Source of the DNA: a virus
Taxonomy: Duplodnaviria; Heunggongvirae; Uroviricota; Caudoviricetes
DNA: 14,184 bases
Virus record (IMG/VR): IMGVR_UViG_2541047119_000008
Strand: one strand, 5' to 3'
The stretch's first letter is position 1; each line of letters begins with the position of its first letter. Made by a program: the position numbers. Shown piece by piece: positions 1-3,000 of this stretch.

Positions 1-3000
1 AAGTCTCTCCGTCCCAGTGGGTGGCAATAGGTGTGCTGGGAAGTCTGCTGTTTGGCCTGCTGACGTATCTGACAAATCTTTATTTCAAGATTAAAGAAGA
101 TAAGCGTAAGGCTGCGAGAGGTGAATAATGTCGCCATCATTACGCAAGGCTGTTGCTGCTGCTATTGGTGGTGGGGCTGCTGCCATAGCGTCTGTGCTCA
201 TCACTGGTCCGAGTGGTGACGATGGCCTGGAAGGTGTCAGCTACATACCATACGAAGATATCGTTGGCGTATGGACTGTATGTCACGGACACACCGGAAA
301 AGACATCATGCCCGGTAAAACGTATACCGAAGCAGAATGCAAAGCCCTCCTGAATAAAGACCTTGCCACGGTCGCCAGACAAATTAACCCGTACATCAAC
401 GTCGATATACCGGAAACAACGCGCGGCGCTCTTTACTCGTTCGTTTACAACGTGGGCGCTGGCAATTTCAGAACATCGACGCTTCTTCGCAAAATAAACC
501 AGGGCGATATCAAAGGCGCATGTGATCAGCTACGGCGCTGGACATACGCTGGCGGTAAGCAATGGAAAGGGCTGATGACTCGCCGCGAGATTGAGCGTGA
601 AGTCTGTTTGTGGGGGCAACAATGAGCAGGGTAACCGTTATTATCTCCGCTCTGGTTATCTGCATTATCGCCTGCCTGTCATGGGCTGTTAATCATTACC
701 GTGATAACGCCATCGCCTACAAAGAGCAGCGCGATAAAGCCACATCCATCATCGCTGATATGCAGAAGCGGCAACGTGATGTAGCAGAACTTGACGCCAG
801 ATACACAAAGGAGCTTGCTGATGCTAATGCGACTATCGAAAGTCTCCGTGCTGATGTTTCTGCTGGGCGTAAGCGCCTGCAAGTCTCCGCCACCTGTGCA
901 AAGTCAACGACCGGAGCCAGCAGCATGGGCGATGGAGAAAGCCCAGGACTTACAGCAGATGCTGAACTCAATTATTACCGTCTCCGAGGTGGAATCGACA
1001 AGATAACCGCGCAGGTTAACTACCTGCAGGAGTACATCAGGACGCAATGCCTGAAATAATTTTTTTTGCAAATCACAAAGTCCATTTAATGAGCCTCGCG
1101 ATGCGGGGCTTTTTGCAATAAATGCGTACCGCAACGCATGTTTTTTACACCGAACCTGCCCCTTTGGAATGGGCCTTTGAGGATACCAGTTAGTGCTGGC
1201 GAGCCTCGGTGGGCTGGTTTCCTGTGCGGCAAAGGTTCATTTCAAAGAGTAGGTACACGCTATGAAATCATTAACCCTCTTCAATCAACCAATCCGTATC
1301 GGTGAAGATGGCATGATCTGCCTCACTGATATGTGGAAAGCCAGTGGTAAAAGTGAATCTGAATCTCCGTACCACTACCTGCGAAACAAGCAGACCAAAG
1401 AGTTCTTGGCTGAGCTGGAGAAAAACCACGAATCTGTGGTTTTTACGGAACGCGGTGCGCACGGTGGAACTTATGGCGGAAAGTTCGTTGCTTATGATTA
1501 CGCAGCATGGCTAAACCCCGGATTTAAATATGCAGCCTATAAAGTCCTCGATGATTACTTCACCGGAGAGCTTCATCATCGGAACAGCTTAAGTGCGCAG
1601 CTCAACATGAAATGTCATGAGTTTGATCAGAAAAAAGACATGGCGAGCTTCTGTGGACAAGGCCTCGCGGCATGGCGCTACACGAAACCTGGTTTGATCG
1701 CTGAAATTAACTCCCTGGCTAACCAGTTGCAGATTTCGATCCCCGGGCTTCCGGGATGAGTGATCGTGTCATTGAATGCGCCTCCAGAGCGGGGCGCGAC
1801 TTCTCAGAGTTCATGAAAGGCGAGAAGGGTATGATGGAAGCATTGGCCTCGGTGGATGAGTTTGGCGAGCAGCTGCGCCTCAACGGCTGTGTCAATCATC
1901 ACTTTGTTAGCTACATGATGCGGAACTCGATCATGCAGGCATTCATGGACATGGCAAAAGCCGAGAGGAAAGAAGAGCGCCGGCGTAAGCGAGCGGAAGC
2001 AAAAGCGAAGTAGCCATTACAAAGCCCATCTACTGGTGGGCTTGATAATGGCTTATACCCTACACGGGATAACTTAACTGATATCCCTTTTAACGGATAA
2101 AGGTATTCAAGCCTGACACATCATGCGCTGTATCGTCGCTGTATTCCCGCATTAACCATGACCGTAGCCCGACGGGGAACTCCTTCTGCGCGAGTGTGCG
2201 GGAATAATCAAAAACGATGCACACCGGGTTTTTACCGCGCTAATGATTCGCGGGTTTGTCCCTCATGCTCGCCAGTCCTGTGCGGGGGTGGAAGAAACAG
2301 GACACTCACACAGATTCTTGTGGGTCGATGCTATTCCTTTCTGGATTATCCCGATGCCATTCATGCAAGGGCTGTATCAGACGTTCGTCATGGCTTTCAG
2401 GCTGACGGCTCCTCCCGGTGGGGTGGCCTGCCACGGGGCGGGAGCGTCGCGGAAAAAGGCTAGTTTTTGCATTTTTATCGGCCACCATCATCTTTGCATC
2501 TTATTGATTATTAATGGTTATTTGTTTTTTGTATGTCGAATTGAGTGTTTTTTGTTCGACATCGAACGCGTTTTCTTAAAGTTGTTCGCACGATGCATGT
2601 TTAAAGCTCTCCGGAGGAAATATGGATCATGAGTTGAAAAACCTGGTGCTGAATATTAATCAACTGGCGGCTTTATCTGGTCTGCACCGCCAGACTGTCG
2701 TGGCAAGACTGAAAAACATTCGTCCCGCTGGTGGACATGACAAACTCAAGCTATACCGGTTGACCGATATTCTGACTGAATTTATGGGGTTACCACCGCC
2801 GGTTGCTGAGGGCGAAATGGATCCACATGAACGCAAAGCCTGGTATCAGTCTGAACGTGAGCGTCTTAAGTTCGAACAGGAAACGGCACAACTCATTCCG
2901 GCCAGTGATGTCAGACGGGAGTTTGCCATCTGGGCAAAAGCGGTCGTGCAGGTGCTGGAGACATTACCGGATATTCTGGAACGTGACTGTGGTCTGCAGC

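What the first reader, a model, noticed from the sequence alone, without database searches (positions are those of the whole stretch)
2400..2621. Lambda-like cosN candidate 186 bp upstream of the terminase small subunit
GGGCGGGAGCGTCGCGG (2436-2452) resembles the lambda left cohesive end and flanking bases GGGCGGCGACCTCGCGG at 13 of 17 positions. Its spacing to the terminase small-subunit ATG (186 bp) is close to the lambda cosN-to-Nu1 spacing (about 190 bp). The intervening segment is AT-rich with inverted repeats (atgtcgaa...ttcgacat at 2532-2561), as expected for cosB with terminase and IHF sites. This would place the virion genome ends here, with lysis genes and the KilA-N insert at the right end and packaging genes at the left end.
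Basis: partly seen in the sequence, partly recalled or inferred. Interest (0 to 1): 0.45.

Follow-up and report, generated by a model that had tools for sequence, protein, structure and literature searches.

The report
Lambda-type cos site of a prophage
This is the ordinary, already known DNA-packaging cut site (cos) of a common family of lambda-like E. coli prophages, and this copy sits in a prophage that looks partly broken.

Summary
GGGCGGGAGCGTCGCGG lies at 2436-2452, 186 bp before the small-terminase ATG. Its 13/17 match to lambda is not significant alone: about 0.5 such hits occur per shuffled window, and local alignment to lambda cos scores no better than shuffles.

The stronger evidence comes from relatives.
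- The records of phages cdtI and Tritos start with the sequence of window 2436-2468 (one mismatch in cdtI) and end at CCACG (= 2431-2435).
- 117 of 120 viral contigs with this cosN carry lambda's 7-bp cosQ (GGGTCCT) 22 bp upstream, in otherwise unrelated flanks.
- The CG pairs at both nick positions are kept, and differences from lambda fall only at positions 7, 8, 9 and 11, the tolerated right half.
- The large terminase is gpA-type and 88% identical to that of cdtI.
- The small terminase is DUF1441/phrog_141, a remote Nu1 relative.

The same cosN occurs with three small-terminase clades, each with its own cosB. The cosB subsites (an IHF-like site and TTCGACAT repeats) are candidates only.

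This copy has cosQ GGCTCCT and a frameshifted portal gene, as in O157 Sp3-like prophages, so it is probably a decaying cos. About 38% of complete E. coli genomes carry this cos core.

The parts
2407..2413 (+). cosQ-like heptamer GGCTCCT, with C2409 where relatives and lambda have G (GGGTCCT)
   Evidence: It occupies the same relative place as lambda cosQ. Among 120 IMG/VR loci with this cosN, 117 have GGGTCCT here within otherwise divergent left flanks. Three loci and the O157 locus L005 have GGCTCCT.
2414..2435 (+). 22-bp cosQ-cosN spacer ending in CACG; it contains CCGGTG, which is also present in lambda
   Evidence: The spacer length is constant in nearly all relatives, whereas lambda has 23 bp. 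The spacer sequence varies but CACG is kept.
2434..2449 (.). cosN core: CG | GGGCGGGAGCGT | CG. Predicted nicks are at 2435/2436 on the top strand and 2447/2448 on the bottom strand.
   Evidence: The CG flanks match lambda, and 8 of 16 bp are twofold symmetric against 10 of 16 in lambda. The cdtI and Tritos records start at the 2436 equivalent and end at the 2435 equivalent. The yong2 record starts at the 2448 equivalent.
2436..2447 (+). Predicted 12-nt 5' cohesive end GGGCGGGAGCGT
   Evidence: It is identical to the first 12 nt of the cdtI and Tritos records. It differs from lambda only at positions 7, 8, 9 and 11, the half reported to tolerate change (PMC4669245).
2448..2468 (+). Conserved block right of cosN, CGCGGAAAAAGGCTAGTTTTT
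   Evidence: It is identical in all three small-terminase clades, although 2448-2459 was fixed by the search pattern. It is recognisably similar in LLS, yong2, Fels-1 and lambda.
2476..2492 (+). Candidate R3-position small-terminase binding site (positions 41-57 from the left end); weak match to the downstream repeats
   Evidence: The aligned block is nearly invariant in clade B (ATTCGTCATCACCA) and clade A. The position is comparable with lambda and N15 R3 at bp 48-65 (PMC9026076). This is inference only.
2497..2509 (-). IHF-like site AATCAATAAGATG, one mismatch to WATCAANNNNTTR
   Evidence: Found, where the pattern is not enriched in the window as a whole. The TTGAT core is invariant at positions about 68-74 in clades A, B and C while the N positions vary. 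It lies where lambda has I1.
2533..2540 (+). Left arm of the inverted repeat, ATGTCGAA (candidate inverted R site)
   Evidence: Found; invariant in 10 unique clade-A cosB sequences.
2554..2567 (+). Palindrome GTTCGACATCGAAC containing the right arm TTCGACAT (2555-2562); candidate R site. TGTTCG recurs at 2583-2588.
   Evidence: invariant in clade A. The palindrome is absent from clade B, which has GTTCATCACTAACA here.
2622..3113 (+). Small terminase subunit (DUF1441 / phrog_141) with an N-terminal helix-turn-helix
   Evidence: Pfam DUF1441 at 4.6e-44 and phrog_141 'terminase small subunit' at 2.7e-77. Profile hits to Nu1 are reciprocal. H22, R23 and T25 are invariant.
3113..5215 (+). Large terminase subunit, gpA family (ATPase plus endonuclease that would nick cosN)
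   Evidence: Pfam GpA_ATPase at 9e-72 and GpA_nuclease at 2e-85. It is 25% identical to lambda gpA and 88% identical to the cdtI large terminase, nearly identical over residues 381-700.
6449..6454 (+). T-run carrying a 1-nt insertion that splits the portal gene (5352-6476 plus 6571-6933)
   Evidence: Relatives have one base fewer and a 533-aa open frame, against 381 aa here. The second ORF matches the portal C-terminus.

Best explanation
Region 2407-2621 is the cos site of a lambda-like prophage of the Gifsy/cdtI/mEp460 type.

Proposed mechanism, by analogy with lambda:
1. The small terminase (2622-3113) binds cosB (about 2470-2600), probably helped by an IHF-induced bend near 2497-2509.
2. 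This positions the gpA-type large terminase (3113-5215) to make two nicks 12 bp apart, at 2435/2436 and 2447/2448.
3. The nicks generate 5' cohesive ends GGGCGGGAGCGT.
4. DNA is then packaged rightwards, starting with the packaging genes.
5. The heptamer at 2407-2413 (cosQ) is needed when the motor reaches the next cos and must cut to finish.

What is shown: the sequence anatomy, the family-wide conservation pattern, the protein families, and the coincidence with deposited phage record ends.

What is inferred: the actual nicking, the identity of the cosB subsites, and IHF binding.

This copy is probably a decaying site in a defective prophage. cosQ carries a G-to-C change (GGCTCCT) and the portal gene is frameshifted, as in the O157:H7 Sp3-like prophage. 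The site could still be cut by a matching terminase from a co-resident prophage.
For: - The cdtI and Tritos records start with the sequence of window 2436-2468 (identical in Tritos, one mismatch in cdtI) and end with ...CTGCCACG (= 2428-2435).
- The record of Hafnia phage yong2 starts at the equivalent of 2448. It ends with cosQ, then 22 nt, then a 12-mer.
- GGGTCCT lies 22 bp upstream of the nick in 117 of 120 loci. Homology among lineages begins at that heptamer.
- Left-half bp 1-6 and the CG flanks are identical to lambda, and the differences are only at bp 7, 8, 9 and 11. That is the pattern reported for natural cosN variants, including Gifsy-1 (PMC4669245).
- The large terminase has both gpA domains. 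It is 88% identical to the cdtI large terminase, with a nearly identical nuclease half.
- The small terminase hits phrog_141 and also phrog_57, the Nu1 family. Nu1 hits phrog_141 in return.
- One cosN is linked to three small-terminase clades, each with its own cosB, as for lambda versus phage 21.
- Related phages are reported with lambda-like 5' cohesive ends. For LLS/mEp213 this is inferred (PMC12315714; annotation). For Cr-LKS3 it is stated as determined (PMC9303873).
- For decay: the portal frameshift co-occurs with the cosQ variant. Sakai Sp3 is scored portal-defective and is neither excised nor packaged (PMC2669165).
Against: - I could not read any physical end-mapping for the 12-mer GGGCGGGAGCGT. 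The cdtI paper (Asakura 2007) and Vahanian et al. 2017 are not held. The Tritos paper does not say how its record ends were chosen. Record boundaries may therefore have been set by analogy with lambda.
- Similarity to lambda cos alone is not significant.
- The IHF consensus is not enriched in the window.
- The R-site assignment is weak. The R3-position block matches the downstream repeats at only about 5 of 9 bases by my own reading of the sequence.
- The small terminase shows no BLAST similarity to Nu1, and hhalign gives only 10% probability.
Confidence: 0.92

Rival explanations
1. The site is a fully functional cos, and the cosQ G-to-C change is neutral. The prophage's only packaging-related lesion would then be the portal frameshift, which other prophages could complement.
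For: - cosN, its flanks and the whole of cosB are identical or nearly identical to those of PhiR40_1 (98.5% over 451 bp), which is deposited as a phage genome.
- Both terminase ORFs are intact.
- In O157 Sakai, defective prophages are packaged with help from others (PMC2669165).
Against: - GGGTCCT is kept in 117 of 120 loci despite heavy variation around it.
- Natural variation in cosQ is described as not apparent (PMC4669245).
- From my memory of Wieczorek & Feiss 2001, which I could not check here, all 7 bp matter in lambda.
- The variant is seen only in loci that also carry the portal frameshift.
- Sakai Sp3 is not excised, replicated or packaged.
Confidence: 0.25
2. The resemblance is a chance G+C-rich motif. 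The phage packages by a headful mechanism, or its cos lies elsewhere.
For: A 13/17 match to lambda occurs about 0.5 times per shuffled window. The local alignment to lambda cos is no better than shuffles.
Against: - There is an exact match to the ends of two phage records.
- The conserved cosQ-22 bp-cosN architecture is present in 120 loci and in distant relatives.
- The large terminase is of the gpA family, the group that makes 5' cohesive ends (PMC12315714).
- No second candidate site exists in the window.
Confidence: 0.02
3. The conservation reflects a protein-coding gene, ORF 2158-2463 or 2243-2632. Some records annotate these as hypothetical proteins.
For: - Open frames span the site.
- PhiR40_1 annotates a CDS across it.
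- ORF 2158-2463 hits phrog_17397 at 1.9e-15.
Against: - The PHROG match covers only residues 65-101, which is the cosQ-cosN DNA itself, and there is no Pfam hit.
- Lineages share sequence only from cosQ rightwards, with unrelated upstream flanks and occasional 1-nt length changes in the spacer. That is incompatible with a conserved reading frame.
- RefSeq annotates nothing here in E. coli genomes.
- Such a gene would be severed in every virion chromosome.
Confidence: 0.03

Closest known systems
Cos of phage cdtI (AB285204) and LF82 prophage Tritos (OV696610)
   Same: cosN and the following 21 bp are identical or nearly so: 32/33 nt for cdtI and 39/40 nt for Tritos. The CACG left flank, cosQ position and 22-bp spacer are the same. 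The large terminase is 88% identical.
   Different: Their small terminase belongs to another clade of the same family (42% identity). Their cosB diverges after about 35 bp. They have the consensus cosQ GGGTCCT.
Cos of phages PhiR40_1, R47_1 and R55_1, and the O157:H7 Sp3-like prophage
   Same: The small terminase is identical to that of the PhiR phages. cos is 98.5% identical to the PhiR phages. It is 100% identical over the stretch read, about 60 bp before to 200 bp after the nick, to the O157 locus L005, including GGCTCCT and the portal frameshift.
   Different: The PhiR phages have GGGTCCT. The O157 locus lacks the KilA-N insert.
Bacteriophage lambda cos (cosQ-cosN-cosB)
   Same: - Order of subsites: a heptamer upstream, a 12-bp staggered-nick site with CG flanks and GGGCGG left half, then an A+T-rich terminase-binding region.
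- The small-terminase ATG lies about 190 bp from the end.
- The large terminase is gpA-type.
   Different: - Cohesive-end positions 7, 8, 9 and 11 differ.
- The cosQ-nick spacer is 22 bp, not 23 bp.
- The cosB sequence is unrelated.
- The small terminase is DUF1441 rather than Pfam Nu1, and the large terminase is only 25% identical.
Gifsy-1, Fels-1 and mEp213/LLS cos sites
   Same: The small-terminase family and head-gene type are the same, with a ClpP-capsid fusion. The cohesive ends are lambda-like and vary in the right half. [quoted passage not shown] The Fels-1 candidate is GGGCGGCAGCGG and LLS is GGGCGGCGCGCT.
   Different: The 12-mers differ. LLS and mEp043 have only 129 bp between cosN and the small-terminase ATG.

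Membership tests
Lambda-like cos site (12-base 5' cohesive ends with identity to lambda; Feiss et al. 2015) | Cohesive-end sequence with the conserved left half (bp 1-6 GGGCGG); variation confined to bp 7-12 | tested here: met
   GGGCGGGAGCGT matches 6/6 in the left half and differs at positions 7, 8, 9 and 11. The criterion is from PMC4669245.
Lambda-like cos site (12-base 5' cohesive ends with identity to lambda; Feiss et al. 2015) | 5'-CG-3' pairs flanking both nick positions and partial twofold symmetry of cosN | tested here: met
   The sequence is CG|GGGCGGGAGCGT|CG. Eight of 16 bp are symmetric, against 10 of 16 in lambda (PMC9026076).
Lambda-like cos site (12-base 5' cohesive ends with identity to lambda; Feiss et al. 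2015) | 7-bp cosQ (GGGTCCT) at a fixed distance upstream of cosN | tested here: inconclusive
   The heptamer is present at the right place (2407-2413) but matches 6/7 (GGCTCCT). Among related loci, 117 of 120 match 7/7. The functional effect of the change is unknown.
Lambda-like cos site (12-base 5' cohesive ends with identity to lambda; Feiss et al. 2015) | cosB with small-terminase binding repeats (R sites) and an IHF site between cosN and the small-terminase gene | tested here: inconclusive
   The segment is A+T-rich. It has an IHF-like site with one mismatch and TTCGACAT-type repeats, all conserved within the clade. The arrangement does not clearly reproduce R3-I1-R2-R1, and no binding data exist.
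Lambda-like cos site (12-base 5' cohesive ends with identity to lambda; Feiss et al. 2015) | Virion DNA physically ends here with 12-nt 5' overhangs | not testable with these tools
   The evidence is indirect only. The cdtI, Tritos and yong2 record boundaries coincide with the predicted nicks. The papers that might document mapping are not held.
gpA-family large terminase (cos-cutting) | GpA_ATPase plus GpA_nuclease domains, encoded directly after the small subunit | tested here: met
   Pfam PF05876 at 9.1e-72 and PF20454 at 1.9e-85. BLASTP against lambda gpA gives 3e-19.
Lambda Nu1 small terminase family | Sequence membership in the Nu1 family | tested here: not met
   Pfam assigns DUF1441, not Nu1. 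BLASTP against Nu1 finds nothing, and hhalign gives 10% probability. Only reciprocal weak PHROG cross-hits of about 1e-8 indicate remote homology. It works like Nu1 but is filed as DUF1441/phrog_141.

The most novel reading that the evidence does not exclude
The G-to-C change in cosQ (C2409) is found here, in O157 Sp3-like prophages and in 3 of 120 viral contigs. It could be a natural termination-defective cos allele. Such a site could still start packaging when a matching terminase is supplied by a co-resident prophage, but could not end it, so it would act as a dead-end sink for the packaging machinery. Natural cosQ variation has been described as 'not apparent' in lambda-like phages.
Probability: 0.3. 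Interest if true: 0.3.

Novelty: already known. Interest (0 to 1): 0.12.

Why it matters
Locating cos fixes the virion map of this prophage family, with packaging genes at the left end and lysis genes plus the KilA-N insert at the right end. It also tells annotators that the ORFs called across 2436 are almost certainly not genes.

The same cosN module is joined to three different cosB and small-terminase pairs. This illustrates how packaging specificity is swapped among E. coli prophages, and which co-resident prophages could cut each other's DNA.

None of this is new in kind. The only mildly unusual point is the cosQ substitution travelling with a portal frameshift in a widespread O157 prophage lineage.

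Tried and rejected
- Significance from lambda alone. The 17-mer count and a local alignment of the 65-nt lambda core were both indistinguishable from shuffles. The lambda comparison cannot carry the claim by itself.
- Literature search for the 12-mer GGGCGGGAGCGT. It gave only an unrelated hit.
- Papers not held: Asakura 2007 (cdtI), Wieczorek & Feiss 2001 (cosQ), Casjens 2008 and Vahanian 2017.
- Looking for virome contigs that end at cos. All listed matches in the IMG/VR scan were internal to contigs, mostly prophages from isolate genomes, so they give no end information.
- IHF consensus scan. It found 6 hits against 9.6 expected in the window, so it is not evidence alone.
- Single-sequence AlphaFold model of the small terminase. 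Mean pLDDT was 53, too poor for a fold search, so I ran none.
- PDB sequence search with the small terminase. It found nothing meaningful.
- Promoter and terminator scan of 1900-2700. Counts were no higher than in shuffles. The one terminator-like hit is the clade-specific palindrome at 2554-2567.
- Coding explanation for the ORFs across cos. Rejected; see the rival explanations.

Full report
**Observation**

The 17-mer GGGCGGGAGCGTCGCGG is at 2436-2452. It matches the lambda left end plus flank at 13 of 17 positions. The next long ORF starts at 2622, 186 bp downstream, against 190 bp in lambda.

That ORF is followed by a 700-aa protein with both gpA terminase domains, a head-tail adaptor, a lambda-family portal and a ClpP/capsid fusion. 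Upstream lie a lysozyme gene, an Rz gene and a KilA-N gene.

The segment 2448-2621 is 36.8% G+C, against 53.1% for the window.

**Is it more than chance?**

Against lambda alone it is not.
- A 13/17 match occurs 0.53 times per shuffled window.
- The best local alignment of the 65-nt lambda cosQ-cosN core scores 23. It falls on the right spot, but shuffles give 22.0 +/- 2.0.

**What makes the site real: relatives**

1. A megablast of 2250-2700 against phage records found that cdtI (AB285204) and Tritos (OV696610) begin at the base aligned to 2436.
   - Both records begin gggcgggagcgtcgcggaaaaaggctagttttt.
   - cdtI ends ...ccggtggggtggcctgccacg, identical to window 2415-2435.
   - Tritos ends ...gggtcctcccggtgggggcccctgccacg.
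2. Hafnia phage yong2 has a small terminase 63% identical to the window's.
   - Its record starts with CGCGGGAAACGGCTAGTTTTT, the equivalent of 2448.
   - It ends with GGGTCCT, then 22 nt, then GGGGCAGCGACA.
   - That record is therefore cut at the position of the other nick, 12 nt away.
3. The virion-derived assembly mEp460_4F5 breaks 5 nt left of the nick and lacks 3 nt at the right nick. This looks like an assembly disturbance at physical ends, which is weak evidence.
4. An exact-pattern scan of IMG/VR gave 120 loci carrying the 24-mer.
   - In 117 of them the heptamer GGGTCCT lies 22 bp left of the nick.
   - The sequence further left falls into at least eight unrelated classes, and the spacer itself varies.
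   - GGGTCCT is what lambda has at 48473-48479, which from my memory is the reported position of cosQ. Homology between lineages therefore starts at cosQ.

**Fit to published rules**

Feiss et al. (PMC4669245) define lambda-like phages by 12-base 5' ends similar to lambda's. They report the following:
- natural differences lie in bp 7-12, with Gifsy-1 differing at 8, 9 and 11;
- the CG pairs flanking both nicks are conserved;
- cosQ shows no apparent natural variation.

The window differs from lambda at positions 7, 8, 9 and 11 only. It keeps both CG pairs, and 8 of its 16 core bp are twofold symmetric, against 10 in lambda.

**Proteins**

- The large terminase is 25% identical to lambda gpA (E = 3e-19).
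- It is 88% identical to the cdtI large terminase, and nearly identical from residue 381 onward, the part that includes the nuclease domain. This fits a shared cosN.
- The small terminase is Pfam DUF1441 and phrog_141, 'terminase small subunit'.
- BLASTP finds no similarity to Nu1, and hhalign is weak at 10% probability, although co-linear over the whole length.
- The PHROG profiles cross-hit reciprocally at about 1e-8: the window protein hits phrog_57, the Nu1 family, and Nu1 hits phrog_141.
- I therefore treat the small terminase as a remote Nu1 relative that works the same way, not as a Nu1-family member.

**cosB**

The same cosN 24-mer is joined to three small-terminase clades:
- clade A, the window type: MDHELKNLVLNINQLAALSGLHRQT...;
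- clade B, the mEp460 type;
- clade C, the cdtI type.

Each clade has its own sequence from about position 35 onward. This parallels lambda and phage 21, which share cosQ and cosN but differ in cosB and small terminase.

Within clades, conservation is blocky. Conserved features are:
- a block at positions about 41-57;
- a TTGAT core at about 68-74, which is an IHF-like site with one mismatch in the window (2497-2509) and a perfect consensus in clades B and C by my own reading of the sequences;
- blocks containing ATGTCGAA, TTCGACAT and TGTTCG.

These are reasonable candidates for the IHF site and R sites. However, the IHF pattern is not enriched in the window. The R3-position block resembles the other repeats only weakly, and the orientation pattern does not clearly reproduce R3-I1-R2-R1. 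cosB is therefore inferred, not shown.

**State of this copy**

- The window has GGCTCCT at 2407-2413.
- It also has one extra base in the T-run at 6449-6454. This splits the portal gene into a 381-aa open frame, where relatives have 533 aa, plus a C-terminal fragment.
- Both lesions occur together in the O157:H7 locus L005 and in IMG/VR loci L085 and L094. Loci with an intact portal have GGGTCCT.
- The O157 locus lies at about 0.9 Mb. By its position I take it to be the counterpart of Sakai prophage Sp3, which I did not check against Sakai itself.
- Sakai Sp3 is scored portal-defective and is neither excised, replicated nor packaged (PMC2669165).
- The window is a mosaic. Its left part, with the KilA-N insert, resembles another O157 prophage, and its cos and head region resembles the Sp3-like one.

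**Frequency and novelty**

The cos core is found in 2077 of 5426 complete E. coli genomes, and 325 of them match at 99% or better. RefSeq annotates nothing at the site.

The cos of this family is already reflected in deposited records (cdtI; the LLS misc_feature). As far as citations show, it is also covered by a dedicated survey of cosN variants, Vahanian et al. 2017, cited, which I could not read. The finding is correct but ordinary.

**Limits**

I could not read any physical end-mapping for GGGCGGGAGCGT. The Tritos paper does not say how its record ends were chosen, and the cdtI paper is not held. Record boundaries may therefore have been set by analogy with lambda. The conservation argument does not depend on them.

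Noticed in passing
window 6449-6454 (portal ORFs 5352-6476 and 6571-6933): A 1-nt insertion in a T-run frameshifts the lambda-family portal gene, giving a 381-aa open frame against 533 aa in relatives. The same lesion is present in an O157:H7 Sp3-like prophage and in two IMG/VR loci.
   Followed up: yes
window 2409: C replaces the G that 117 of 120 related loci and lambda have in the 7-bp cosQ. The variant was seen only in loci that also carry the portal frameshift.
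   Followed up: partly
window about 1060-2012: The KilA-N/ORF11CD3 gene (1262-1759) and a phrog_875 ORF (1756-2013) are absent from the otherwise near-identical O157 locus L005. They form an insert between Rz and cos. The left part of the window matches a different O157 prophage at 98.3%, so the window is a mosaic.
   Followed up: partly
window 2158-2463 and 2243-2632; L009 406-711: ORFs spanning cos are annotated as hypothetical proteins in some phage records. They hit PHROG 17397 only over the cosQ-cosN DNA, so that PHROG is probably built from translated cos sequence rather than from a real gene.
   Followed up: partly
L006 1-30 and L004 end (mEp460_4F5, LR595868): This linear virion-derived record breaks 5 nt left of the predicted nick and lacks 3 nt (TCG) at the right nick. 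This is probably an assembly artefact at physical cohesive ends.
   Followed up: no
L014 537-560 and L019 495-520 (CP-1639, VT1-Sakai): Stx1-phage relatives have GGGGCGGGCGG(G)CGCGG after the conserved CACG. This suggests a cohesive-end sequence of different composition, and possibly different length, in that lineage.
   Followed up: no
window 2554-2567: The 14-bp palindrome GTTCGACATCGAAC is invariant in the window's small-terminase clade but absent from the mEp460 clade. It could be a clade-specific terminase contact, and the terminator scan also flagged it.
   Followed up: partly
window 2504-2513 versus 2654-2663: TTGATTATTA in cosB has a 90% complementary partner, TATTAATCAA, inside the small-terminase gene, 140 nt away. 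This recalls the remote rR2 site described for N15, but it may be chance.
   Followed up: no
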